Below the pieces are notes generated by a model. That model did not search any database, was not told the DNA's origin, and was given only the letters and a program-made list of their open reading frames with translations. Position numbers and translations under genes: made by a program. From assembly GCA_034422875.1 (NCBI GenBank), contig DAOUJI010000066.1, forward strand, positions 8,714-72,713: a DNA stretch of 64,000 nucleotides, given 5' to 3'. The DNA is from Dehalococcoidia bacterium (GTDB lineage: Bacteria; Chloroflexota; Dehalococcoidia; Lucifugimonadales; JAGWBF01). Positions 20,463 to 63,421 of this stretch are shown here, in pieces. The stretch's first letter is position 1, and each line of letters starts with the position of its first letter.

Positions 20463-22139
20463 CTAGCTCTCTGGGTCGGAGAAATAACGCTGGATTAGTC
20501 TCAGCACATGGTCCCTGTCAATAAGACCGTCAAAGTAGTCGCTTATCGCCCTGAGGATTTCGTCTTTGTCGATTCTACCGTCTCTGTTGGCGTCGTAGTT
20601 CGTTTCAACTGCCAACGCTAATGTTTTGACCGACATCAGTGAGATTATGACGTAGGTGCGGTCCTCGTAGGTGCCACAGCGATGTTCTACAAGCTCCCAA
20701 CTTCCGTCGGCGACTGAGTACAAATTCGCACGGTCCTCGCTGCACGCTGGTTGGTCGTCCTGGGGGATGCCCAACCACAACTCCACATCCGGTGCGGTGA
20801 AGTCCATATAGGGAATGTCGCTCTCAGACGGATAGGCCTTAACGTTCACCGACCACACGACCTCGGAAGCGACGTCCGACGGCGGCGCTCCCTCAGGCAG
20901 GACATCTAATTCGGCTACTATGATCGTGGTGCCGCTGGGAAGGGAATCCTGGGGGATTACCAGGCGTTTGGCGAAATCTCTCGAGATGTAAACATGGGTC
21001 GATGCGCCGCCGGAAGACGTAGATCCAGAAAAGCCGGATGCCCCTATCGCCAGCTGCACTCGCACCTTCTGGGGAGAATTTTCGATTCCCGTGCCGGATA
21101 TCTCTACCGTACCGCGATGGTATCCCAAATCTAGATTAGACGAGTCCACACTTACGTCGATTTCCTGAATGTCGGTTGGCCCGCTGGAGAAGCCGGATAG
21201 CGGGTCGAGGGTCAGCCAATCGGCGTTGTCTGAAACATTGAAGCTCATTGGTCCTGTGCGGCTGTTCCACACTTGCAGTTTCTGTGACGGCGGTACGTCC
21301 TCGATCATGTCAACGAAGAAGGTGGCGGGTTCGAACGGAGGCACCGCGATCAGGCCCTCGGTCGCCGTCGTCGCGGATTCGAGGGTAAAGGTCAACGTCG
21401 CCATAGGCGAGTTGGAAAACTTGCCTGTGTTTCTAATGCTGCTGATAGCCTCCTGAGGGCTGGTGGGGGAATTGTTCAAGGTGAACTCAGTCCCCTCCTC
21501 CGTGCCTGCATCGTAGGGATAGAGGTTGACTACAAGCTCGTCTTTCCAGTTCCCGTCGCCGTCCAGCAGGGAGAGTCCTGAAATGCCCACGAACCAGTCC
21601 GGGCTGGGTCCAATCATGGAGAGAAGGGTCACCAGGGGATAGTCAGACGTGACTTCGATGTCGAACGTATTTGAGCCTTCCGGGCCGCTTCCGGGACTCT
21701 GCTGTATGATCGACAGTTTGTTGTTTCCGCTGGCGTTGATTTCACCCCGGAAAGTGCCCGTGGCGCCGAGCTCGGCGACGTTCTCAACCCCTGGGGTGGC
21801 CAGGCCGCCGCTGCTCCAATAGGTGACGCTGCTGTTGTGGACAGCGCCGATAAGCGTGGTGAAATGCCCGCCCGACACTACCCCACCGGGAGTGCTTTGA
21901 AGGTTCCACATTCCCTTGAACGTGACACTGTACTCAACTTCGGTCGCAGTCTGAGCCGAGACGGATTTGGAGATAGCTCCGGACGTAAGCAATAGGCACA
22001 ATAATCCGGTAAGGACCGCAAGTGTTAGAAAGAGACGCTGCCTGGCGAGAAAAGGCACGCATAAAATGGCTTGGGCGTCTCGCTGCCGCCGAGATAAGTA
22101 GGGCATAGGGTTCATAGCTGCCATCCCTGGATAACCCAT
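20463..22139 (-). CDS. secreted spondin_N-domain protein with C-terminal EF-hand/dockerin-like module
   Basis: A signal/anchor helix precedes a spondin_N-like domain (FKGMWN...GHFTTLIGAVHN...LLSMIGPSPDWFVGISGL...LYPYDAGTEEG). The C-terminus reads YDANRDGRIDKDEILRAISDYFDGLIDRDHVLRLIQRYFS. Confidence 0.7.
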   Translation of the reverse strand: MGYPGMAAMNPMPYLSRRQRDAQAILCVPFLARQRLFLTLAVLTGLLCLLLTSGAISKSVSAQTATEVEYSVTFKGMWNLQSTPGGVVSGGHFTTLIGAVHNSSVTYWSSGGLATPGVENVAELGATGTFRGEINASGNNKLSIIQQSPGSGPEGSNTFDIEVTSDYPLVTLLSMIGPSPDWFVGISGLSLLDGDGNWKDELVVNLYPYDAGTEEGTEFTLNNSPTSPQEAISSIRNTGKFSNSPMATLTFTLESATTATEGLIAVPPFEPATFFVDMIEDVPPSQKLQVWNSRTGPMSFNVSDNADWLTLDPLSGFSSGPTDIQEIDVSVDSSNLDLGYHRGTVEISGTGIENSPQKVRVQLAIGASGFSGSTSSGGASTHVYISRDFAKRLVIPQDSLPSGTTIIVAELDVLPEGAPPSDVASEVVWSVNVKAYPSESDIPYMDFTAPDVELWLGIPQDDQPACSEDRANLYSVADGSWELVEHRCGTYEDRTYVIISLMSVKTLALAVETNYDANRDGRIDKDEILRAISDYFDGLIDRDHVLRLIQRYFSDPES

Positions 22140-23399: not shown

Positions 23400-23804
23400 T
23401 TACTCCGGGGCTGTGTGGCCCATCACGAGATCGCGCAGTGTCACGATCCCCAGAGGGTTGCGGTCGTGGTCTACAACGATGGCGCGGGAGACTTCAAACC
23501 GCACCAGCAGTCGCACCGCATATCGCGACGCCATTTCGACAGGCAGGGTCAACACCGGCTTGGACATGATTTCATAGATGTTGACCCGTTCCGGGGAACG
23601 GTCCCGGGCTATCACCTGGCGTGCGATGTCGGAGACCAGCACCAGTCCCGCCTCGTCGGTGTCGTCCCGCCGGCTTACGGCCAGCGAGTTTACCCCGTGC
23701 TGTCGCATAAGCTCGATGGCCTCGGCTACAGTCGCCAGACCATCGATACTGTGGAGTTCAGAAGTCATGAGGTCTCCAACCTTGCTATGACCTGTCTCGC
23801 TCAT
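23400..23804 (-). CDS. CBS-pair domain protein
   Basis: 134 aa with two CBS motifs (...VGDLMTSELHSIDGLATVAEAIELMRQHGVNSLAV... and ...IYEIMSKPVLTL...). The start ATG overlaps the stop of the upstream PII-like gene (ATGA at 23801-23804). Confidence 0.85.
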   Translation of the reverse strand: MSETGHSKVGDLMTSELHSIDGLATVAEAIELMRQHGVNSLAVSRRDDTDEAGLVLVSDIARQVIARDRSPERVNIYEIMSKPVLTLPVEMASRYAVRLLVRFEVSRAIVVDHDRNPLGIVTLRDLVMGHTAPE

Positions 23805-24151
23805 ATCTCGTACTCCAGCTCCTCTCGAATGGTAGGCAGTTGGGTGGTGAGGCCAACGGCGTCCTCAATGTCCAGTTGGAACGCGATTCCAGAACCGTGC
23901 TCCGTCTCCATGTGAGCGGCGTCCCGGATGCGTTCCAGAATGTGCCGGGCTCGAGTTTCGACCACCAGAAACAGAACGATGTCTCGTTGGGCGGCCAGGC
24001 CGAGGCCCAGGAAGGTCTTTTCAGGGACCAGTCCCTCACCTCGAACGCTGCTGACTATCGTCGCGCCGGTGGCTCCGCCGGCGCGGGCGGCGTCTACCAC
24101 GATCTTGGTCTTCTCGTCGTTGACTAAGGCTACAATCAGCTTCATCCTCAT
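23801..24151 (-). CDS. P-II-like signal transduction protein (divergent)
   Basis: 116 aa. MKLIVALVNDEKTKIVVDAARAGGATGATIVSSVRGEGL resembles the beta-alpha-beta ferredoxin-like PII fold. It lacks a canonical GlnB T-loop sequence. Confidence 0.65.
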   Translation of the reverse strand: MRMKLIVALVNDEKTKIVVDAARAGGATGATIVSSVRGEGLVPEKTFLGLGLAAQRDIVLFLVVETRARHILERIRDAAHMETEHGSGIAFQLDIEDAVGLTTQLPTIREELEYEI

Positions 24152-24155
24152 GGCT

Positions 24156-24941
24156 TTAAGCCTCCTTGGAATCCCTGGCCGCTCGTCTGCGGTTCAACCA
24201 AGACGCAACCATGGCGTAGCCCAACACCGTCATTATAGGAAAGACGCTGGCGAAAGCAATCAGTCCGAACCCGTCGATCAGTGGGCTGCGTCCCGGAACG
24301 TTCGCGGCTAGGCCCAGTCCCAGAGCCGCCACGACAGGCACCGTCACGGTTGAGGTCGTCACCCCTCCGCTGTCATAGGCCAGAGGCACGATGGTTTTGC
24401 TGGACCGGAAGGTCTGGACTATGACGACTACGTAAGCCGCCATGATGTACCAGGGGAGGGGGGTGCCTGTGACGATGCGGAAGCAGCCAAGCGCCACTCC
24501 CGCCGCCACCCCCACTGCTACGGCCAATCTCAATCCCCAGGAGCGGACGGAGCCGCCCGAGACCTCCTCGGCCTTCAGGGCCACCGCTATGAGCGCAGGT
24601 TCGGCGACCGTGGTGGCGAAACCGATGGCTGCGGCGAAAACGTAGACGAGCCAGTAGTCGCGCCAGTCTATGCCGCCTATCAGGCTCTGATATCCAACAG
24701 TTTCGGGCCCGGTGAGTTGGCGCTCCATGGTCTCTCCGATGGGGAAGAGCGCCTCTTCCAGGCCTACAAGAAAGAAGGCGAGCCCCAGAAGGACGAACAC
24801 AACCCCCATTGCCATCCGGCGGGGGTTCGGCAGTTTGCGGCGCAGGATTATGAGCTGGAAAAAGACCAGGACTCCGACTATGGGAGCCACGTCTACGAGA
24901 GTGGACCGGACGGTTGTTCCGAATGTGTCGAGGAATTCCAA
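24156..24941 (-). CDS. DUF1538 family membrane protein (copy 2)
   Basis: Polytopic membrane ORF with ...[14 protein letters not shown]... and ...[25 protein letters not shown].... It is a paralogue of the adjacent gene. Confidence 0.7.
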   Translation of the reverse strand: MEFLDTFGTTVRSTLVDVAPIVGVLVFFQLIILRRKLPNPRRMAMGVVFVLLGLAFFLVGLEEALFPIGETMERQLTGPETVGYQSLIGGIDWRDYWLVYVFAAAIGFATTVAEPALIAVALKAEEVSGGSVRSWGLRLAVAVGVAAGVALGCFRIVTGTPLPWYIMAAYVVVIVQTFRSSKTIVPLAYDSGGVTTSTVTVPVVAALGLGLAANVPGRSPLIDGFGLIAFASVFPIMTVLGYAMVASWLNRRRAARDSKEA

Positions 24942-24943
24942 TT

Positions 24944-25687
24944 TCAGGTCACCATTCCGTAAATGAGTACACAGATCATAGGGGTCAAACTGGCGAAGGC
25001 GATGAGCCCGAATCCGTCAAGCATTGGATTGCGCCCCCGGATTGAAGCTGCCAGCCCGACGCCCAACGCGGTGACCAGAGGCACCGTGATGGTGCTGGTG
25101 GTGACTCCCCCTGAATCGTAGGCGACGCCGATGATCTCCTCTGGGGCGAATGCGGTCAGAGCCGTCACTAGCACATAGCCGCCGATTATCAAGTAGTGTA
25201 TGGGCCAACCCTTCAAGATGCGGACGACACCCAATACGATGGCGGCTCCTACAGACAACGCCACGACCAGGCGCAACTCGAAGGCGTAGGAAGATCGGGC
25301 GTTCTCGTTGTTAGGGATGGCCCCGGCTTCAGCCGCGACATCGGCGGCCTCGGAGGCTATGGCAATCAGCGCCGGTTCAGCGACCGTGGCGCCGAATCCC
25401 AGGCAAAAAGCGAAGGCCAGCAACGCCGTCAGGCTTCCCTTGTTGGCGAACCCCCGTGCTAACGCGTCGCCAATGGGAAAGAGGCCGCTTTCCAGGCCCT
25501 CGACGAAAAGAGCCAGCCCGACGACCACGAAGACCAAACCTACGATAACGTCTACGAGGTCGGGGAATGGCTGTTGCAGCACCGCTATCTGGAAGAACGC
25601 GATGACGATGATGATAGGCGCCAAGTCCCGCAGAGAACCGAGGGTCCTCTGCAGCATCGGGGCGAAGAGCCGGGGAAACTCCTTCAT
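24944..25687 (-). CDS. DUF1538 family membrane protein (copy 1)
   Basis: Polytopic membrane ORF with ...[15 protein letters not shown]... and ...[25 protein letters not shown].... Only 2 nt separate it from copy 2. Confidence 0.7.
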
Positions 25688-26502
25688 CCAAGTCCTTCCG
25701 GCTAGCTGAACAAGCGCCGTAAACTACGGCGGGCTAAAATATAGTTGGCCTCCTGAAGTGAGTCAAGCCGGGTAGCTGCCTATGGAACCGGTGACTACAC
25801 TGCATGACGACCGTCACAGAGCCGGGTCATAAGCTTTAAATTTTTCTACTAAATCGTCAGGCTGGGTTTTATTTGCCCCACATCGGTCAGAGTCAAGCGA
25901 AAGCGATGACCGAATACGTCCATCCCATATAGGTTTTGGGGCAATCAAGGTCATGACAGCCTGTACCGTCGGCTGTTTCGGCGCCTTGACCAGCTCCGTT
26001 GGACGCTGCTAAACTCCCGCAGAGTCGAGTGGGATGTGGTTGGTGTGGTGTGGATATTGCGCGGCCTCCGCGCCTAGTCATCTGGACGTGCGCCATGCAG
26101 ATATACTCTAACAGCCCCCGAATGGGGAATACAGACCTGAGAGAAGTGACTTATCGCAACAGACAGCGATACAGCCTTCCCTGCGAGCCTTAACTTACCC
26201 GTCCAATCTAATCGGGGTTCTCTGACCCCTCTCCCTTAGGTCCTCTGGCCTTAACCTTGCCGCCGAGTTCGTCGGCTTCTTCACCCACCCCAAAGCCAAC
26301 GCTTTATTGATGCTTTGGCATTTCGGGGGTGCGAGGGCGAAGCCGCGAACGCGAGGCAAAAACCAACATAAATGTCCAGGGGAATCGTATTGCCAAAAGC
26401 ATTGTTCGATTTTCCTTGGGGAGACCACGAAACACTCTGCTCAAATAGTCCCGCCGTTGCGGGCAGCGCTTTGCGTAAAGCAAGAAAATCAGGAGGTTGA
26501 CA

Positions 26503-26874
26503 ATGCGAGAAGTGCTTAGGTCGAAGATTCATCGAGCGTGGGTTACCGACGCGAACCCGGACTATGTTGGGAGCATCCTCATCGACGAGGACCTGATGGA
26601 CCGGGTGGACCTGTGGGACTTTGAAAAGGTCCTGGTCTGTGACATCAATAATGGCAACCGGTTTGAGACCTACGCCATCGCGGGCGAACGCGGCTCGGGC
26701 GTCGTCGCCGTTCAGGGCGCGGCAGCCCGCCTCAGCGCCACTGGCAACTGCATAATCATCATGTCCTTCGAAGTCACGGACGACAGGCCGGACCCGCAGA
26801 TGATTCTGGTGGACCAGGACAACCAATTCGTTGAATACCTCGAGGGAGCCAAACATGGTCAGCAAGTTTTCTGA
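26503..26874 (+). CDS. panD: aspartate 1-decarboxylase (pyruvoyl-dependent)
   Basis: ATG at 26503, 6 nt after AGGAGG. MREVLRSKIHRAWVTDANPDYVGSILIDEDL... retains the Gly-Ser self-cleavage site, followed by ...NNGNRFETYAIAGERGSGVVAVQGAAARL.... Confidence 0.9.
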   Translation: MREVLRSKIHRAWVTDANPDYVGSILIDEDLMDRVDLWDFEKVLVCDINNGNRFETYAIAGERGSGVVAVQGAAARLSATGNCIIIMSFEVTDDRPDPQMILVDQDNQFVEYLEGAKHGQQVF

Positions 26875-27676
26875 ACAAGAAACCGAGTCCTACTACGACT
26901 CGGAAGACGTCATATACCGGTCGGTCTGGGACGAAGACGGGAGCGTCCACTGGGGCCTCTTTGACGAAAGCGGCGACAAGGACTTCCTCAAGGCCTGCGA
27001 CAGGCTGAACCGGACGATGGTCGCCAAAGGCGGCATTAACCAGGACTCTTCGGTGCTGGACTTGGGCTGCGGCAACGGGACGACGGCCATATGGCTCGCC
27101 GGAGCCAGCGGTGCGCACGTGACTGGCATTGACCTCAGCGGCGTCCGAGTGGCCAACGCATTGGACAAAAAGGCCGCGCTAGACCCCGGTCTCGGGGACA
27201 GAGTGGCTTTCGAGAAGGCCTCGGCCACCGAACTTCCCTTCGCTGACGGCTCCTTCACCCACGTCTGGAGCCAAGCAGTGATCTACCACGTGCCGGATAA
27301 ACGCACGGTCCTGAGCGAGGCCTACCGCGTCCTGGCAGAGGGCGGCATCATGGTGTTCGATGACCTCCTCAGGCCAAAGCGGGACATTACGCCTGAAGCC
27401 CAGACCTACGTATACGACCGGCTGCTGTACGACACAGAGTTCAGTTTCGAGTCTTATCAGCAGGCTCTCAAGGACCAGGGTTTCGAACTGCTTGAAGCCT
27501 TGGACATTTCCCCCCACCTGAGGCAGAGCTACCTGTGCCTGTCCGAGCGCACTCCCAAGGACGAAACGTTGGACGAAGCCGAACATTACAAGTGGCTCAC
27601 CAAAGCATACATCGAGACCGCCGCCGCTGTGGACAAAAACGAGCTGGGCTGGGGTCTCTACATCTGCCGGAAGTAA
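26855..27676 (+). CDS. class I SAM-dependent N-methyltransferase, sarcosine/dimethylglycine N-methyltransferase-like
   Basis: ATG at 26855 with a GAGGGAG SD, overlapping the panD 3' end by 20 nt. ESYYDSEDVIYRSVWDEDGSVHWGLFDE..., the SAM motif VLDLGCGNG, ...VWSQAVIYHVPDK... and a C-terminal ...ELGWGLYICRK resemble SDMT/GSMT-family betaine-pathway enzymes (from memory). Confidence 0.7.
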   Translation: MVSKFSEQETESYYDSEDVIYRSVWDEDGSVHWGLFDESGDKDFLKACDRLNRTMVAKGGINQDSSVLDLGCGNGTTAIWLAGASGAHVTGIDLSGVRVANALDKKAALDPGLGDRVAFEKASATELPFADGSFTHVWSQAVIYHVPDKRTVLSEAYRVLAEGGIMVFDDLLRPKRDITPEAQTYVYDRLLYDTEFSFESYQQALKDQGFELLEALDISPHLRQSYLCLSERTPKDETLDEAEHYKWLTKAYIETAAAVDKNELGWGLYICRK

Positions 27677-27677
27677 C

Positions 27678-28310
27678 ATGCCGGACAGTCATAACAGAGT
27701 TCAATGGGTCTATTCCTCCAACTCCAACCAGGAGTTGGAGGAACGCTACGACCAATGGGCCGCCGAATACGACAAGGACCTGTCCGAGGAGTTCGAGTGG
27801 AACGCCCCACAGACGGCGGCTGACCTGTTCGCGAAACACGTCCCCGCCGGAGCGAAAATCCTGGACGCTGGAGCCGGCACCGGCCTTGTGGGTGAATGTC
27901 TAGCCCAGTCGGGCTACCGTGACCTCTACGCCATGGACCTGTCTCTGAGAATGCTGGAGGAGGCCCGGCAAAAGGACCTCTACAAAGATTTCCGCCAGAT
28001 GACCCTTGGTGAGGAGCTGGGCTACGAAACCGACTCATTCGACGCGGTCATAAGTGTTGGGGTGTTCACCACGGGCCACGCCCCGGCCCATGCCTTCGAC
28101 GAGTTGGCCCGCATCACCAAGCCCGGCGGGTTCATTGTGTTCAGCTTGCGGGTTGACCTGTTCGAAGAAGGCGGCTTCAAGGAATACCAGGAGGGCATGG
28201 AAGAAGCCGGCAAGTGGAAGCTGGCCGAGCTATCCGAGCCCTACTACGCGCTCCCCAAGGGCGAGCCCGACGTAATCCACCGCATCTGGGCCTACCAAGT
28301 CACCGCCTAG
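27678..28310 (+). CDS. class I SAM-dependent methyltransferase (second, unrelated subfamily)
   Basis: The ATG lies 1 nt after the preceding stop. SAM-binding motif ILDAGAGTGLVG, then ...DAVISVGVF... and ...KPGGFIVFSL.... Confidence 0.75.
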   Translation: MPDSHNRVQWVYSSNSNQELEERYDQWAAEYDKDLSEEFEWNAPQTAADLFAKHVPAGAKILDAGAGTGLVGECLAQSGYRDLYAMDLSLRMLEEARQKDLYKDFRQMTLGEELGYETDSFDAVISVGVFTTGHAPAHAFDELARITKPGGFIVFSLRVDLFEEGGFKEYQEGMEEAGKWKLAELSEPYYALPKGEPDVIHRIWAYQVTA

Positions 28311-28449
28311 CGCCGCCGCCTTCCAGGGCGGCTCAACTTCCCTACCTGTGCCTCATTCGTTCCGATCACGCTGACCGTGTTTTTGTGACGAATTGTCATC
28401 TGCTATTATTGGGTGAGTTGTAATACCTGAATAATTGAAGTCATTCACT

Positions 28450-30897
28450 ATGAAAGTCGAAAGGGTTGGGATTCCAACGATTGTTGTCGCCGCAATTGCC
28501 TTTTGGGTGGCCGCTGCGGCAATTGGGATCCTCTCCATCCCGAAGGTCCTGGCGCACGATCCGTCCTCAGGCGACTGCTCCTCTGGCATCGCTGTACCCA
28601 ACGCAGCCAGCAACCCGGGGCTGGTGTCCGACTGCGAAGCGTTGCTGGCGTCCCGGGACACTTGGTCCGGTCAGGCGACTCTTAATTGGTCTCAGGACAT
28701 CCCCATGGGAGACTGGGATGGGATCGCTCTCGATGGCATGCCGCCAAGGGCGACAAAGCTGATAGGCATCGGAGCGAAGTTGACCGGCTCGATACCCGCC
28801 GAATTGGGCAGGCTTGATAAGTTGGAAGAATTGAATCTGGCAGGAAATCACCTAACAGGCCCGATTCCACCCGAACTGGGTAACCTTGCTGATTTGCAAG
28901 TGCTGGTGCTTAACTCGAACCAGTTGACTGGTGCAATTCCTGCGGAACTGGGCAACCTATCCAGCTTGAAAGTCCTCCGACTTTCCGAGAATCGGTTGGA
29001 CGGTCCTATACCCCCAGAGCTGGGTCGATTGTCGACGCTGTTATGGCTGTCTCTCACTCAGAACCAATTGAGTGGGCCTATCCCTTCAGAACTGGGCAGT
29101 TTGCCTAATCTGGTGTTTCTTTATCTCAGAGGCAATCGGCTGATCGGCCATATTCCTTCGGATCTCAGTCGGCTGACTATGCTGTACGATCTTGACCTCT
29201 CTTACAATCAACTAAACGGTTCGATACCGGAAGAGTTGGGCCTCCTGTCCAAGTTGCAATTCCTAGACCTTACCAACTCTGGATTGAGCGGCCCAATACC
29301 GAGGGAATTGGGAAACCTATCCGGTTTGGTTTGGCTCAATCTTTCTTACAACCAGTTGAGTGGAGCAGTGCCCTCGGAGTTGGCGGGTCTATCAAAGTTG
29401 ACAAGACTTTGGCTCCATGGGAATCAGTTGACCGGGCCAATACCCTCTCAGTTGGGTAACCTCTCAAACCTGGTGGAACTGACCCTAGGGGGCAACGATC
29501 TCACCGGTACGATACCCACTCAACTGGGTAGCCTCGCCAACCTGGAATCTCTGTCCCTCGACTATAACCAGCTGACCGGGCCGATACCCTCGGAGTTGGG
29601 GAACCTGACCAAATTGCAGAACCTATGGCTCAACAGCAATCAGTTGAATGAGTCGATACCCAACTCGCTAGGCAACTTAATCAACCTGAAATCGCTAGAC
29701 TTGTCGAAGAACCGGTTGAAGGAGAACGTGCCCAATGAACTAGGCATCTTGGTCAACCTGCAATCATTGAACCTGTCAAACAACCGCTTGACCGGGACTA
29801 TCCCAGTTCAGCTTGGCAGCTTATCCAGACTGGAGACGCTAAATCTCTCTGGCAACCAGTTGGATGGGACGATACCCGCAGAGCTTGGCGTGTTGTCTAA
29901 CCTGAGAGAAATCTGGATTGGTGGAAACCAGTTGACCGGATGCATACCAGCCGCTTTGAAAGCGGTGCTAGATAATGACCTCGCCACTCTCGGTCTACCG
30001 TTCTGCCACCCGTTGCAGGATGCTTGTGCCATCGAAGGGGCAGTGCCAAATGCGTACAATAATCACCAGTTGGTGGCCGACTGCTATGCTTTGCTGGAGA
30101 CACGGGATATCTTGGATGATTCCGGTTTGCTGAATTGGTCGGCGGACCTGTACATCACAGACTGGGATGGGGTCACAGTCAGTGGCACGCCGCTTCGCGT
30201 CACCGGGGTCCGGCTCGACAGCTACAAGTTAGGCGGTACTATACCGCCACAGCTATCCAGGCTGACCGATCTAAAGTTGCTGTCCCTAACTTACACCCAA
30301 ATGACCGGCCCGATTCCAACTGAATTAGGCAGTTTCTCCAACTTGAAAGAACTATACCTAGGCAGTAACCAGTTGACAGGCCCGATTCCCGCTGAGTTGA
30401 GTAGTCTCTCCAATCTCCGCCATCTCTACCTCAGCAGCAACCGTTTAGATGGGACGATACCGGCCGCACTAGGGGGCCTCGTCAAGCTTGAGGAACTGGC
30501 CCTCTCCTATAATCAATTGACCGGTTCAGTTCCTGCTGAACTGGGCAACCTAACCAGGCTGCAACGACTGAGACTGTCCCACAACCAATTGACCGGGGAC
30601 ATACCGGCCGAGTTAGGACAACTCGCAAACCTAACGGAACTGAAGCTTGCTGGGAGCCAGCTGACCGGGTGCATTCCGCAGGGATTGAGAGATGTAGCAG
30701 TCAATGACTTTGGCGGCCTCGGCCTGCCGTTCTGCATGTTGACCGAGGAAGAGTTGCTCGACCGGTATGACGGCAACGGCAACGGGACCATCGAGAGAGA
30801 CGAAGCCCTTGACGCTGTGGCAGACTACTTCGCAGACCTAATCAGCAGAGATGACGTGTTAACCATCATCTCACTCTATTTCTCGTCGTCCGGTTGA
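28450..30897 (+). CDS. secreted leucine-rich-repeat protein, plant-type 24-residue LRRs, with C-terminal EF-hand/dockerin-like module
   Basis: An N-terminal hydrophobic anchor/signal is followed by two LRR blocks of about 17 and 7 repeats of LxxLxxLxLxxNqLtGpIPxELGn. Each block is preceded by a Cys-containing cap (...DCEALLASRD...LNWS...DWDG...) and closed by ...GCIP...LPFC. The C-terminus reads YDGNGNGTIERDEALDAVADYFADLISRDDVLTIISLYFS. G+C is lower than in the neighbours. Confidence 0.85.
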   Translation: MKVERVGIPTIVVAAIAFWVAAAAIGILSIPKVLAHDPSSGDCSSGIAVPNAASNPGLVSDCEALLASRDTWSGQATLNWSQDIPMGDWDGIALDGMPPRATKLIGIGAKLTGSIPAELGRLDKLEELNLAGNHLTGPIPPELGNLADLQVLVLNSNQLTGAIPAELGNLSSLKVLRLSENRLDGPIPPELGRLSTLLWLSLTQNQLSGPIPSELGSLPNLVFLYLRGNRLIGHIPSDLSRLTMLYDLDLSYNQLNGSIPEELGLLSKLQFLDLTNSGLSGPIPRELGNLSGLVWLNLSYNQLSGAVPSELAGLSKLTRLWLHGNQLTGPIPSQLGNLSNLVELTLGGNDLTGTIPTQLGSLANLESLSLDYNQLTGPIPSELGNLTKLQNLWLNSNQLNESIPNSLGNLINLKSLDLSKNRLKENVPNELGILVNLQSLNLSNNRLTGTIPVQLGSLSRLETLNLSGNQLDGTIPAELGVLSNLREIWIGGNQLTGCIPAALKAVLDNDLATLGLPFCHPLQDACAIEGAVPNAYNNHQLVADCYALLETRDILDDSGLLNWSADLYITDWDGVTVSGTPLRVTGVRLDSYKLGGTIPPQLSRLTDLKLLSLTYTQMTGPIPTELGSFSNLKELYLGSNQLTGPIPAELSSLSNLRHLYLSSNRLDGTIPAALGGLVKLEELALSYNQLTGSVPAELGNLTRLQRLRLSHNQLTGDIPAELGQLANLTELKLAGSQLTGCIPQGLRDVAVNDFGGLGLPFCMLTEEELLDRYDGNGNGTIERDEALDAVADYFADLISRDDVLTIISLYFSSSG

Positions 30898-36517: not shown

Positions 36518-36877
36518 ATGTCATCTACGAACGATCCCGTTCGACTACCAGAGTTCACCAACGACCTTGGAAGGCTGTCCAGAAAGCTCCGCTCTATCGA
36601 CCGCGACCTGGAAGCGTTCATTCGATTGCTCCAGGCAGGCCTCAAATCAAGCATACATGCAACCCGGGTTCCTGGGTTCGGTGAACTAAACGTATGGAAA
36701 GGCCGCGCAATTAGTCGAGACATGCGGAGTGGAAAATCCGGAGGGTTCAGAATCTGGTGGCTAGAAACCTCATCGGACACCGTAGCGCTGCTCTACATAT
36801 ACACTCATCGCAGCAACGAGAACGAGAATCGTATCAGGGAAGAAGTTAGAAGGCGTCTTTCAACCAATGGATATTAG
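36518..36877 (+). CDS. RelE/ParE-superfamily toxin (HigB/Gp49-like)
   Basis: 119 aa. ...LPEFTNDLGRLSRKLRS... and the core ...GKSGGFRIWWLETSSDTVALLYIYTHRS... resemble RelE/ParE-type mRNA interferase toxins. No same-strand antitoxin ORF is adjacent. Confidence 0.6.
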   Translation: MSSTNDPVRLPEFTNDLGRLSRKLRSIDRDLEAFIRLLQAGLKSSIHATRVPGFGELNVWKGRAISRDMRSGKSGGFRIWWLETSSDTVALLYIYTHRSNENENRIREEVRRRLSTNGY

Positions 36878-37396
36878 AGGAGACGTTTCCTCGTCTTCGC
36901 TATCGGGCATGGACTCAAACTTTCGCCTATAGTAGGCATACTCATACGGTATCGTTTCGCCCTCGGCAGTCGCTATCCAAGGGGCTTCCCCGTGACTTGC
37001 TGCTACTAGTTCGGCGGCCGTCTGATTTTCCCACTTTTTCGCGATGTCGAACATGAGCTTCAACTCAGTGGGCCTGAAGATGTCCAGCGGCGGCTCGACA
37101 CCTGGTATGACCGAATACCGGTATTGGGTGTACGGCCCCGACTGTTCCTTGATTTCTTGTACCAACCCAGACATCCTGCGCAATTCCTTTTGCATCTGCT
37201 TGGGATACGGTCCCCGTGGCATGTGGACGTAGTCGGCGCCAGTGACCGCCACTCCATGTTGCTCGAAATGATCGAAGTCCAGGAAGTAGAGAAGCTTTGC
37301 CAATTTGGTTCGACCCAAAGTGCCGTTGCGCACGGTATCACAGAAGAACAGAAGCGCGGCCTGCATCTTTTTGGAACTATAGTGTGTCCTAGCCAT
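36860..37396 (-). CDS. Panacea (DUF4065, SocA-like) domain antitoxin-type protein
   Basis: ...GRTKLAKLLYFLDFDHFEQHGVAVTGADYVHMPRGPYP... is the characteristic N-terminal region of the DUF4065/Panacea domain. Its 3' end overlaps the convergent toxin-like gene by 18 nt. Confidence 0.65.
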   Translation of the reverse strand: MARTHYSSKKMQAALLFFCDTVRNGTLGRTKLAKLLYFLDFDHFEQHGVAVTGADYVHMPRGPYPKQMQKELRRMSGLVQEIKEQSGPYTQYRYSVIPGVEPPLDIFRPTELKLMFDIAKKWENQTAAELVAASHGEAPWIATAEGETIPYEYAYYRRKFESMPDSEDEETSPLISIG

Positions 37397-62630: not shown

Positions 62631-63332
62631 CTAGGGAGCGGTCCGGGACACGATCCGTAGGCTCTCCACTACCTGCCGCAGGGCGTCATCCCAAGGCACT
62701 TGTTCCGTCTCCTCCAGCCCCTGGCTCACGTAGTACGCCTCCATTCTTGGCGAGCGGCTGAGGGCCTTTCGCAGGGCGCCCTGGTTGGCCGGAACAGGAG
62801 CCGCGCTAATCTCCAGCAGCTCCTGCTCCAGGAACCGCACTCCCAGTGCCTTGCCGGTGTCGGCGTCTCGTCGCAGCTCGTACCTGATTGGCCGGAACCC
62901 CACCGACACGCCCCGCTGGTATCCGTTCCGGTAGAGGTCTGCCACCTCTTTGGCAAAGTCCGTAGGTGCGAACTCCACCCTTGCCATGAGGTTGTTCCCC
63001 TCGGCCCAAAGCTCCCGCGTTCGGCCTATGGCCGGCCTGGTGTAATCGTGGGCCCAGAGGAACACCGGGTTTTTGAGATAGGACTGGAGCCGCCATCCCT
63101 GCAGCGAAATCACGTCGCCGTGGCGGTCTACGTCGTCGTTGGACACAACGAAAGCCATCTGCTGTTCTCCGGCCTCTGGCGACTGAGCTTGAGGAAAGCC
63201 CAGGCTTTCCACGGACTGTCCGGTGGCGGCTGAGGTCCACTTCCGCAAATAGGGCGCGTCGCTGAGTCCTCGCCGGTATGAGTCCAGCGACTCCAACAAC
63301 CGCTCCCGTTCCCATTGCTCGATGTCGTTCAT
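62631..63332 (-). CDS. HK97-family phage prohead protease
   Basis: ATG 63332 after GGAAGGGAGG. ...FVVSNDDVDRHGDVISLQGWRLQSYLKNPVFLWAHDYTRPAIGRT... is the prohead serine protease (S78/U35) core, and ...LLEISAAPVPANQGAL follows. Confidence 0.85.
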   Translation of the reverse strand: MNDIEQWERERLLESLDSYRRGLSDAPYLRKWTSAATGQSVESLGFPQAQSPEAGEQQMAFVVSNDDVDRHGDVISLQGWRLQSYLKNPVFLWAHDYTRPAIGRTRELWAEGNNLMARVEFAPTDFAKEVADLYRNGYQRGVSVGFRPIRYELRRDADTGKALGVRFLEQELLEISAAPVPANQGALRKALSRSPRMEAYYVSQGLEETEQVPWDDALRQVVESLRIVSRTAP

Positions 63333-63381
63333 GCAGGGCGCCTCCCTTCCGATTTGGTTTTCGCTCTTCCGGGGCCAGGGC

Positions 63382-63421
63382 ACAAAAAGAGGGACAGACC
63401 CAACTCAGGGTCTGTCCCTCT
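63382..63421 (-). terminator. strong intrinsic terminator (minus strand) immediately upstream of the prohead protease gene
   Basis: A perfect 14-bp stem, AGAGGGACAGACCC (63388-63401) with GGGTCTGTCCCTCT (63408-63421) and a 6-nt loop. On the minus strand it is followed by TTTTTGTG. Confidence 0.7.

What the first reader, a model, noticed from the sequence alone, without database searches (positions are those of the whole stretch)
26503..28310. panD translationally coupled to two SAM-dependent methyltransferases: candidate beta-alanine betaine pathway
An aspartate 1-decarboxylase with an intact Gly-Ser self-processing site is detached from panB and panC. Its 3' end overlaps by 20 nt a methyltransferase resembling the sarcosine/dimethylglycine N-methyltransferases of the glycine-betaine pathway. 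A second class I methyltransferase starts 1 nt after that. PanD makes beta-alanine, and stepwise N-methylation of beta-alanine gives beta-alanine betaine, an osmolyte whose synthesis is known from Plumbaginaceae plants. I know of no described bacterial gene cluster for it.
Basis: inference. Interest (0 to 1): 0.75.

Follow-up and report, generated by a model that had tools for sequence, protein, structure and literature searches.

The report
Candidate bacterial beta-alanine betaine operon
A marine SAR202-type bacterium carries a tightly packed three-gene cassette (aspartate decarboxylase plus two methyltransferases), conserved in dozens of related species, that most likely makes the osmolyte beta-alanine betaine, for which no microbial genes are known.

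Summary
panD (26503-26874), a 273-aa methyltransferase MT1 (26855-27676, 20-nt overlap) and a 210-aa methyltransferase MT2 (27678-28310, 1-nt gap) form one unit on the + strand.

The adjacency is not unique. Of 80 Dehalococcoidia/SAR202 loci, 55 carry the intact trio, and the 20-nt overlap is kept in 53 of 58. No panB or panC lies within 8 kb in any of them.

Outside SAR202, MT1 and MT2 are fused into one protein in at least 10 distant protein clusters. One such fusion sits next to panD, metK and ahcY. A low-GC lineage has panD directly upstream of an MT1 homologue. Symploca cyanobacteria fuse PanD, a glycine/sarcosine-methyltransferase-like domain and an MT1-like domain. Other fusions sit beside gamma-butyrobetaine-hydroxylase-like genes, two also beside carnitine acyltransferase genes.

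So MT1 and MT2 look like a module that exhaustively N-methylates omega-amino acids, and PanD supplies beta-alanine. The product is inferred, not shown.

MT1 is not a true SDMT (103 bits against a cut-off of 550). MT2's closest solved relative is the orphan mammalian METTL27. I found no paper describing microbial beta-alanine betaine genes.

The parts
26491..26496 (+). Shine-Dalgarno-like AGGAGG, 6 nt upstream of the panD ATG
   Evidence: Read directly from the sequence.
26503..26874 (+). panD: pyruvoyl-dependent aspartate 1-decarboxylase, 123 aa. The Gly23-Ser24 processing site is intact. Gln replaces the canonical Asn72.
   Evidence: PF02261 133 bits and TIGR00223 122 bits, above the cut-off of 106. 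Aligned to M. tuberculosis and E. coli PanD structures. Gln at the Asn72 position in 119 of the 120 closest homologues and in 58 of the 60 PanD copies over 100 aa in the fetched loci.
26855..27676 (+). MT1: 273-aa class I SAM methyltransferase with the RebM/MitM/SDMT-type fold. Proposed to carry out the later N-methylations of beta-alanine.
   Evidence: Pfam and NCBIfam scans. PDB sequence search. AlphaFold model with pLDDT 88, and Foldseek TM 0.83-0.86 to AtmM, MitM and Galdieria SDMT. It overlaps panD by 20 nt, conserved in 53 of 58 loci.
27678..28310 (+). MT2: 210-aa class I SAM methyltransferase, METTL27/WBSCR27-like. Proposed to carry out the first N-methylation(s) of beta-alanine.
   Evidence: Pfam scan. 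Best PDB hit by sequence is 7qcb METTL27, 88.6 bits, E 4e-24. The same entry is the top Foldseek hit, TM 0.72. It starts 1 nt after the MT1 stop, a spacing kept in 31 loci. It is fused to MT1-like domains in at least 10 distant protein clusters.

Best explanation
The three genes form one translationally coupled operon that converts L-aspartate into beta-alanine betaine (N,N,N-trimethyl-beta-alanine).

PanD decarboxylates aspartate to beta-alanine. This step must come first, because a pyruvoyl enzyme needs the substrate's free primary amine to form its Schiff base (established PanD chemistry).

The two SAM-dependent methyltransferases then share the three successive N-methylations, in the way GSMT and SDMT share them in glycine betaine synthesis. 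MT2 (METTL27-like) probably acts early and MT1 (SDMT-like) late.

The product most likely serves as a compatible solute of this marine, probably sponge-associated, SAR202/Dehalococcoidia bacterium.

Shown here: gene identities, the coupling, the conservation, and the fusions and neighbourhoods in other lineages. Inferred: the substrate of the methyltransferases, the number of methyl groups added, the division of labour between MT1 and MT2, and the physiological role.
For: 1. Conserved cassette. Of 80 Dehalococcoidia/SAR202 loci found through MT1, 55 have intact panD-MT1-MT2 in the same order. The 20-nt panD/MT1 overlap is kept in 53 of 58 loci, although the flanking genes differ between loci (dnaE, a molybdoenzyme-like gene, a hydrolase and others).

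2. MT1 and MT2 belong together. At least 10 representative clusters at 50% identity are single proteins of 458-495 aa with an MT1-like N-terminal half (31-49% identity) and an MT2-like C-terminal half (33-41%).

3. PanD is linked to MT1-type enzymes in three further, independent arrangements.
- L082 has an MT1-MT2 fusion, then panD, metK and ahcY. SAM synthetase and SAH hydrolase are the signature of a high-flux methylation pathway.
- L089 and L091 (34-37% GC) have panD 3 nt upstream of an MT1 homologue.
- Three Symploca MAGs carry a 674-aa protein: PanD, then a domain whose only NCBIfam hit is glycine/sarcosine N-methyltransferase, then an MT1-like domain.

4. Other members of the module sit beside enzymes that make or use omega-amino-acid betaines.
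- GBBH-like dioxygenase plus carnitine acyltransferase: L086, L094, L095.
- A fused or adjacent TauD-family dioxygenase, and a PLP-dependent decarboxylase: L083, L084.
- A class III aminotransferase, next to P0367.

5. The cassette panD is never next to panB or panC. It is decayed or absent in some cassettes (L013, L042 and about 13 loci with only MT1-MT2). That fits an accessory role.

6. Literature. Natural North Pacific communities label beta-alanine betaine through SAM-derived methyl groups, and the authors could cite only the plant enzyme (PMC9321204). A Porphyra methyltransferase-PanD fusion lacked DMSP-synthesis activity (PMC11306096), and the related alga Pyropia accumulates beta-alanine betaine on dehydration (PMC12113544).
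Against: - No biochemical or metabolite data exist for this organism.
- Neither methyltransferase reaches the cut-off of any curated family. MT1's nearest solved relatives include O-methyltransferases, an aziridine N-methyltransferase and even a cyclase. Sequence alone therefore does not fix the substrate or the atom that is methylated.
- About 13 loci keep MT1-MT2 without panD, and 9 keep MT1 alone. The methyltransferases can evidently work with a precursor from elsewhere, or on another substrate.
- No betaine transporter, osmosensor or regulator lies beside the cassette.
- All close PanD homologues carry Gln in place of the near-universal Asn72. The effect of this is unknown.
- Whether another panD serves CoA synthesis in these genomes could not be checked.
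Confidence: 0.62

Rival explanations
1. The cassette does methylate beta-alanine, but the end product is N-methyl- or N,N-dimethyl-beta-alanine. Alternatively the methylated beta-alanine is a precursor of something else rather than a free betaine osmolyte.
For: Two enzymes do not prove three methylations. No osmotic-stress genes flank the cassette. Other members of the module feed hydroxylases and acyltransferases, which shows that its products can be intermediates.
Against: The GBBH-like partners in sister clusters act on trimethylammonium substrates. This rests on established knowledge of gamma-butyrobetaine hydroxylase and on the PF06155+PF02668 hits, and it argues that the module methylates exhaustively. 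The known two-enzyme and one-enzyme systems (GSMT/SDMT, plant BANMT) all go on to the betaine. The SAR202 cassette has no downstream tailoring gene.
Confidence: 0.13
2. The linkage is not metabolic. PanD serves pantothenate/CoA synthesis, and the two methyltransferases act on an unrelated substrate such as a quinone, a lipid or a nucleic acid.
For: Source annotations call MT1 'UbiE'. MT2's relative METTL27 was suggested to act on nucleic acid, on structural grounds (PMC9240639). Some genomes keep MT1-MT2 without panD.
Against: The 20-nt coupling overlap is conserved across 53 species. PanD associates with MT1-type enzymes in four independent architectures, including a covalent fusion. metK and ahcY lie in the L082 cluster. 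The neighbours elsewhere are themed on carnitine and betaines. UbiE/MenG models score far below their cut-offs.
Confidence: 0.1
3. MT1 and MT2 are a divergent GSMT/SDMT pair that makes glycine betaine, and panD is a passenger.
For: MT1's top NCBIfam hit is SDMT, over its full length. Its fold matches Galdieria SDMT with TM 0.84.
Against: MT1 scores 103 bits against the SDMT cut-off of 550. No glycine/sarcosine N-methyltransferase hit is listed for MT2. MT2 belongs to the METTL27 family instead. This reading does not explain the repeated link to PanD.
Confidence: 0.06
4. The cassette makes a sulfonium compound of the DMSP type. An S-methyltransferase would act together with a PanD-family decarboxylase working on DMSHB or a similar acid.
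For: DMSP is the sulfonium analogue of beta-alanine betaine. Wang et al. 2024 regarded a PanD-family domain fused to a DsyG-like methyltransferase as a good candidate DMSHB decarboxylase.
Against: That Porphyra fusion showed neither the S-methyltransferase nor the decarboxylase activity (PMC11306096). The PanD here keeps every aspartate-binding and catalytic residue apart from Asn72. A pyruvoyl enzyme needs an alpha-amino group, which DMSHB lacks (established chemistry).
Confidence: 0.03

Closest known systems
Glycine betaine synthesis by glycine/sarcosine N-methyltransferase (GSMT) plus sarcosine/dimethylglycine N-methyltransferase (SDMT), known from halophilic bacteria, cyanobacteria and Methanohalophilus
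   Same: Two class I SAM methyltransferases, encoded side by side or fused, share three successive N-methylations of a small amino acid to give a betaine osmolyte. MT1 has the SDMT-type fold and length. In L082 the methyltransferases lie with metK and ahcY. From my own recollection, a SAM synthetase gene also accompanies some glycine betaine methyltransferase operons.
   Different: The inferred substrate is beta-alanine, supplied by a dedicated decarboxylase in the operon. MT1 falls far below the SDMT model cut-off (103 against 550). The partner enzyme MT2 is METTL27-like, not GSMT/GNMT-like. Only the Symploca fusion uses a GSMT-like first domain.
Plant beta-alanine N-methyltransferase (Limonium latifolium, Plumbaginaceae)
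   Same: The same proposed chemistry: beta-alanine to N-methyl-, N,N-dimethyl- and then N,N,N-trimethyl-beta-alanine, using SAM (reviewed in PMC6657504; pathway as summarised).
   Different: From my own knowledge, the plant uses one trifunctional enzyme of the caffeate O-methyltransferase family (Pfam Methyltransf_2). MT1 and MT2 give no PF00891 hit. If the function is the same, it arose independently. Plants also do not use PanD to make beta-alanine.
Homoserine N-methyltransferase Tery_2447 of Trichodesmium (homoserine betaine synthesis; Pade et al. 2016, cited in PMC5864184)
   Same: It is a precedent for a cyanobacterial SAM methyltransferase that trimethylates an amino acid other than glycine to make the main compatible solute.
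   Different: The MT1-MT2 fusion in Lyngbya PCC 8106 (WP_009784215.1) may or may not be its orthologue.
Mammalian METTL27 / WBSCR27 (PDB 7qcb), an orphan methyltransferase
   Same: It is MT2's closest solved relative in both sequence (88.6 bits, E 4e-24) and fold.
   Different: The substrate of METTL27 is unknown. Its authors favoured a nucleic acid but did not exclude a small molecule (PMC9240639). MT2 sits in a small-molecule operon.
DsyGD / DSYE MTHB S-methyltransferases of DMSP synthesis, and the 'DsyGD-like' methyltransferase-PanD fusion of Porphyra umbilicalis (OSX77567.1)
   Same: A PF08241 methyltransferase combined with a PF02261 PanD-family domain.
   Different: The Porphyra protein showed no DMSP-pathway activity. 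Its relationship to MT1 could not be tested because the sequence is not held. It may be a eukaryotic counterpart of the cassette described here.

Membership tests
PanD, pyruvoyl-dependent aspartate 1-decarboxylase (TIGR00223 / PF02261) | Score above the curated equivalog cut-off | tested here: met
   TIGR00223 122 bits against a cut-off of 106. PF02261 133 bits against 25.
PanD, pyruvoyl-dependent aspartate 1-decarboxylase (TIGR00223 / PF02261) | Gly-Ser self-cleavage site and the catalytic/substrate residues (E. coli Lys9, His11, Tyr22, Arg54, Thr57, Tyr58) | tested here: met
   Alignment to 2c45 and 1ppy shows K8, H10, Y21, G23-S24, R53, T56 and Y57.
PanD, pyruvoyl-dependent aspartate 1-decarboxylase (TIGR00223 / PF02261) | Conserved Asn72 (E. 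coli numbering) | tested here: not met
   Gln is found here and in 119 of the 120 closest homologues. The role of Asn72 in cofactor formation has been probed with an N72A mutant (Webb et al. 2012, cited in PMC4410942). The effect of Gln is unknown.
PanD, pyruvoyl-dependent aspartate 1-decarboxylase (TIGR00223 / PF02261) | Aspartate decarboxylase activity and self-processing | not testable with these tools
   Needs expression, SDS-PAGE or mass spectrometry of the processed chains, and an enzyme assay.
Sarcosine/dimethylglycine N-methyltransferase (NF041675) | Score at or above the equivalog cut-off of 550 bits | tested here: not met
   MT1 scores 103 bits, although the alignment is full-length (residues 11-272 on model positions 13-276 of 278). 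MT2 scores 20.7 bits.
Sarcosine/dimethylglycine N-methyltransferase (NF041675) | SDMT-type fold | tested here: met
   Foldseek TM 0.83-0.84 to Galdieria SDMT 2o57. AtmM, MitM and RebM match equally well or better, so this feature does not discriminate.
Glycine/sarcosine N-methyltransferase (NF051855) | Score at or above the cut-off of 350 bits | tested here: not met
   It is not among the listed hits of MT1 or MT2. Every listed hit of MT2 is at or below 54.6 bits.
Plant beta-alanine N-methyltransferase (COMT-like, Pfam Methyltransf_2 PF00891) | Presence of the PF00891 O-methyltransferase-family domain | tested here: not met
   No PF00891 hit for MT1 or MT2 at E <= 0.01.
METTL27 / WBSCR27-like methyltransferases | Significant sequence and fold similarity over most of the protein | tested here: met
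   For MT2: phmmer 88.6 bits, E 4e-24 over residues 23-182. Top Foldseek hit 7qcb, E 6.5e-16, TM 0.72. The family has no known substrate.
DsyG/DSYE/TpMMT MTHB S-methyltransferases (DMSP synthesis) | At least 38-40% identity to ratified sequences, the criterion of Wang et al. 2024 | not tested
The only evidence is the literature result that the PanD-fused Porphyra homologue is inactive.
Betaine-forming N-methylation pathway (functional class) | SAM-dependent N-methylation of beta-alanine to the trimethyl product | not testable with these tools
   Needs enzyme assays or metabolite analysis.

The most novel reading that the evidence does not exclude
MT1 and MT2 define a widespread, uncharacterised two-domain module that exhaustively N-methylates omega-amino acids.
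- Coupled to PanD it gives beta-alanine betaine. This arrangement occurs in SAR202, Symploca and other lineages, and would supply the missing genes for the beta-alanine betaine synthesis seen in seawater.
- Coupled to a GBBH-like hydroxylase and a carnitine acyltransferase, it would give a bacterial de novo route to carnitine from GABA that bypasses trimethyllysine.
- By homology, the orphan human enzyme METTL27 would be a small-molecule amine N-methyltransferase.
Probability: 0.3. Interest if true: 0.88.

Novelty: new variant of a known kind. Interest (0 to 1): 0.78.

Why it matters
Beta-alanine betaine is made by marine microbial communities through SAM-dependent methylation (PMC9321204). 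It also occurs in algae and animals. The only known enzyme for it is a plant O-methyltransferase-family protein.

This cassette offers a concrete and cheaply testable gene set for the microbial route. It occurs in SAR202/Dehalococcoidia, a group prominent among sponge symbionts (PMC6306507) and, to my knowledge, abundant in the deep ocean.

The cassette would provide a marker gene for nitrogen-rich osmolyte production in metagenomes. It assigns a function to two large families now annotated 'UbiE' or 'class I SAM-dependent methyltransferase'. It points to related clusters that may make carnitine de novo in bacteria. It also gives the first functional lead for the orphan human methyltransferase METTL27, which lies in the Williams-Beuren syndrome region.

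Tried and rejected
- **Literature.** Nine full-text searches were run. Searches looked for microbial beta-alanine betaine genes. One search looked for homoserine betaine, for GABA methylation to butyrobetaine, and for METTL27. None described this cassette. The D. vulgaris paper that co-mentions aspartate decarboxylase concerns a PLP enzyme and is irrelevant. The PNAS paper on Tery_2447 is not held.
- **Upstream RNA.** An Rfam scan of 25500-28600 found no riboswitch in the 815-nt upstream spacer. The promoter/terminator scan gave nothing above background.
- **Neighbours.** Pfam scans of the genes within about 10 kb found no transporter, osmoregulator or SAM-cycle gene tied to the cassette in this window.
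- **Fold searches.** They did not discriminate the substrate of MT1. O-, N- and C-methyltransferases and a cyclase all match at TM about 0.8.
- **Tree.** A neighbour-joining tree of MT1-like domains was star-like, without resolved PanD-linked and GBBH-linked clades. It was not used as evidence.
- **Second panD.** Whether another panD exists elsewhere in these genomes could not be determined.
- **P0014.** This 390-aa 'PanD-MT1 fusion' arises from a frame change inside the 20-nt overlap and may be an assembly error. It was not counted as a true fusion.
Full report
**1. What is in the sequence**

Three ORFs lie head to tail on the + strand.
- panD runs 26503-26874 (123 aa), with an AGGAGG 6 nt upstream of its ATG.
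- MT1 runs 26855-27676 (273 aa). Its ATG lies 20 nt inside panD, in another frame.
- MT2 runs 27678-28310 (210 aa). Its ATG comes 1 nt after the MT1 stop.

panD passes the curated NCBIfam equivalog (TIGR00223 122 bits, cut-off 106) and Pfam Asp_decarbox (133 bits). Aligned to solved PanDs of M. tuberculosis and E. coli, it keeps the Gly-Ser cleavage site and the counterparts of Lys9, His11, Tyr22, Arg54, Thr57 and Tyr58. The one departure is Gln in place of Asn72.

MT1 and MT2 are class I SAM methyltransferases.

**2. The organism**

The closest loci are all MAGs labelled Dehalococcoidia, SAR202 or Chloroflexi. The best of them is 91% identical for MT1, 96% for PanD and 94% for MT2.

The window also encodes a Baeyer-Villiger-type monooxygenase, an 820-aa leucine-rich-repeat protein, a Spondin_N protein and an NHL-repeat protein. 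From my own knowledge, these 'eukaryote-like' proteins are typical of sponge-associated SAR202. That habitat assignment is an inference.

**3. The adjacency is conserved**

A scan of one genome per GTDB species found 295 loci encoding an MT1 relative, and the best 80 were fetched.

| Content of the locus | Loci |
|---|---|
| Intact panD, MT1 and MT2, same order and strand | 55 |
| MT1-MT2 without an intact panD | 13 |
| panD-MT1 without an intact MT2 | 3 |
| Neither panD nor MT2 intact beside MT1 | 9 |

- Three of the nine 'neither' loci (L029, L046, L079) are cut at a contig end.
- The panD/MT1 overlap is exactly 20 nt in 53 of 58 loci.
- The MT1/MT2 gap is 1 nt in the 31 closest loci and about 90 nt in the more distant ones.

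Beyond the three genes the neighbours change from locus to locus: dnaE, a membrane-anchored molybdoenzyme-like protein, an alpha/beta hydrolase, a transglutaminase-like protein. The cassette itself is therefore the conserved unit.

panD is visibly decayed in L013 (an internal stop) and in L042 (37% identity, no Gly-Ser). Some genomes carry two copies of the cassette.

No panB or panC is found in the window or in any fetched locus. The test used E. coli PanB and PanC as queries, after their recalled sequences were checked against PDB 1M3U and 1IHO.

**4. What the methyltransferases resemble**

*MT1.* Its best NCBIfam hit is SDMT, over the full length. The score is 103 bits against a cut-off of 550. 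By sequence, the nearest solved proteins score as follows.

| Protein | Bits |
|---|---|
| MitM (aziridine N-methyltransferase) | 113 |
| AtmM (sugar O-methyltransferase) | 107 |
| RebM | 91 |
| Plant phosphoethanolamine N-methyltransferases | 71-75 |
| Galdieria SDMT | 69 |

A confident AlphaFold model (pLDDT 88) matches all of these at TM 0.78-0.86. MT1 therefore has the SDMT-type fold but is not a member of the SDMT equivalog, and its fold does not reveal its substrate.

*MT2.* It has only generic family hits. Its closest solved relative, by both sequence (88.6 bits, E 4e-24) and fold (top Foldseek hit), is mammalian WBSCR27/METTL27. That enzyme's substrate is unknown (PMC9240639).

Neither protein has the Methyltransf_2 domain of the plant beta-alanine N-methyltransferase family.

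**5. Evidence from distant relatives**

This is the decisive part. An exhaustive HMMER search of 1.8 billion representative proteins with MT1 returned 67 hits below E 1e-30. Many of these are 458-495 aa long.

BLAST and Pfam show that these longer proteins are MT1-like at the N-terminus and MT2-like at the C-terminus, including MT2's characteristic N-terminal helices. At least 10 clusters at 50% identity have this fusion. MT1 and MT2 thus act as a pair well beyond SAR202.

I looked up the gene neighbourhoods of eleven such relatives.

PanD-linked:
- L082 has the fusion followed by panD, metK and ahcY.
- L089 and L091 (34-37% GC) have panD 3 nt upstream of an unfused MT1 homologue.
- Three Symploca MAGs, one on a 717-kb contig, carry a 674-aa protein. 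It consists of PanD, a middle domain whose only NCBIfam hit is glycine/sarcosine N-methyltransferase (41 bits), and an MT1-like domain.

Linked to betaine-using or amine-forming enzymes:
- L086, and L094/L095 on a 3-Mb bacterial contig, have the fusion next to a GBBH-like_N+TauD dioxygenase and a carnitine O-acyltransferase.
- L083 has the fusion extended by a TauD domain, with a PLP-dependent decarboxylase 1.2 kb away.
- L084/L085 (Minicystis) have the fusion between an MscS-type channel and a CmcI-TauD protein.
- P0367 is followed by a class III aminotransferase.

Uninformative or different:
- P0416 (Lyngbya PCC 8106), P0372, P0366 and P0361.

The recurring partners either make omega-amino acids (PanD, PLP decarboxylase, omega-aminotransferase), or act on trimethylammonium carboxylates (gamma-butyrobetaine-hydroxylase-like enzymes, carnitine acyltransferase), or regenerate SAM.

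**6. Mechanism proposed**

PanD converts aspartate to beta-alanine. It cannot act after methylation, because the pyruvoyl cofactor must form an imine with a primary alpha-amine (established PanD chemistry).

MT2 and MT1 then add three methyl groups from SAM. In the Symploca fusion the order is PanD, GSMT-like domain, MT1-like domain, and MT1 resembles SDMT. By analogy, MT2 probably takes the early step(s) and MT1 the late ones. This assignment is an inference.

The overlapping and abutting reading frames would keep the three proteins in fixed proportion.

The role as a compatible solute is also inferred. It rests on the marine habitat, on the metK/ahcY and MscS neighbours in sister clusters, and on the known role of beta-alanine betaine in plants and algae.

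**7. Rivals**

- *Partial methylation, or a non-osmolyte fate.* This cannot be excluded.
- *A purely coincidental linkage, with PanD serving CoA synthesis.* This is hard to reconcile with four independent PanD/MT1 architectures and the conserved overlap.
- *Glycine betaine synthesis.* The model scores argue against it, as does the identity of MT2.
- *DMSP-type chemistry.* The intact aspartate-binding residues of PanD argue against it. So does the negative assay of the Porphyra methyltransferase-PanD fusion (PMC11306096). Given that Pyropia accumulates beta-alanine betaine, that fusion is better explained by the present hypothesis.

**8. Novelty**

Six targeted full-text searches found no description of microbial genes for beta-alanine betaine.

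Boysen et al. 2022 showed that natural Pacific communities methylate beta-alanine to the betaine. They could cite only the plant pathway.

No NCBIfam model covers MT1, MT2 or their fusions.

The chemistry is a known kind: stepwise SAM-dependent N-methylation of an amino acid to a betaine. Three things are new. The enzymes are unrelated to the plant one. A dedicated decarboxylase is built into the operon. One partner belongs to a family with no known function. I therefore rate it a new variant of a known kind.

**9. Limits**

- The product is not demonstrated.
- Whether a separate housekeeping panD exists could not be tested.
- The neighbourhood sample outside SAR202 is small (eleven proteins).
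- The habitat assignment is inferred.

Noticed in passing
L086:874-6660; L094 and L095:3015-7404: An MT1-MT2 fusion methyltransferase lies next to a gamma-butyrobetaine-hydroxylase-like dioxygenase (GBBH-like_N + TauD) and a carnitine O-acyltransferase. L086 also has an MFS transporter. This looks like a bacterial de novo carnitine (or hydroxy-betaine) cluster that starts from an omega-amino acid rather than from trimethyllysine.
   Followed up: partly
L081:4596-6620 (Symploca sp. SIO1A3, NER48858.1; also NER19595.1 and NER97356.1): A 674-aa tri-domain protein: PanD, a distant glycine/sarcosine-N-methyltransferase-like domain, and an MT1-like domain. It is annotated only as 'aspartate 1-decarboxylase'. 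A further MT1-like N-terminus begins at the end of the contig (7694-7795).
   Followed up: partly
window 27678-28310: MT2 is a clear bacterial homologue of the orphan mammalian methyltransferase METTL27/WBSCR27 (Williams-Beuren region). Its place in a small-molecule operon suggests that METTL27 may methylate a small amine.
   Followed up: partly
window 26713-26715 (PanD residue 71): Gln replaces the near-universal Asn72 of PanD here and in 119 of the 120 closest homologues. The PanD next to the low-GC MT1 homologue (L089) and the Symploca fusion keep Asn. The consequence is unknown.
   Followed up: partly
window 23400-25687 (- strand): A four-gene set: two DUF1538 membrane proteins, a P-II-like protein and a CBS-domain protein. 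It looks like a regulated transporter of unknown substrate, transcribed divergently from the cassette across an 815-nt spacer.
   Followed up: no
window 20463-22139 (-) and 28435-30897 (+): A Spondin_N/BACON protein and an 820-aa leucine-rich-repeat protein end in the same roughly 40-residue EF-hand/dockerin-like tail (D-x-N-x-D-G-x-I...Y-F). These are eukaryote-like proteins of the kind seen in sponge symbionts.
   Followed up: no
L013:7649-8017; L042:7664-8014; L021, L024, L026, L028, L030, L032, L034, L036, L044: The cassette panD is pseudogenised (an internal stop in L013, heavily degenerate in L042) or absent, while MT1-MT2 stay intact. Some genomes carry two cassette copies (OY762409.1, CBDFLW010000004.1, and two PanD clusters from OZ220685.1).
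   Followed up: partly
P0014 (390 aa, on a 441-kb contig): An apparent PanD-MT1 fusion created by a frame change inside the 20-nt overlap. It could be a real fusion or an assembly indel.
   Followed up: no
window 62631-63383 (-) and 36860-37396 (-): A Caudovirus prohead protease (Peptidase_S78) gene near the end of the window suggests a prophage remnant. A SocA/Panacea antitoxin-domain gene lies at 36860-37396.
   Followed up: no
window 28315-28332: GCCGCC-ttccag-GGCGGC hairpin 5 nt after the MT2 stop codon, with no T-tract. It was not called by the terminator scan and may be the end of the operon.
   Followed up: no
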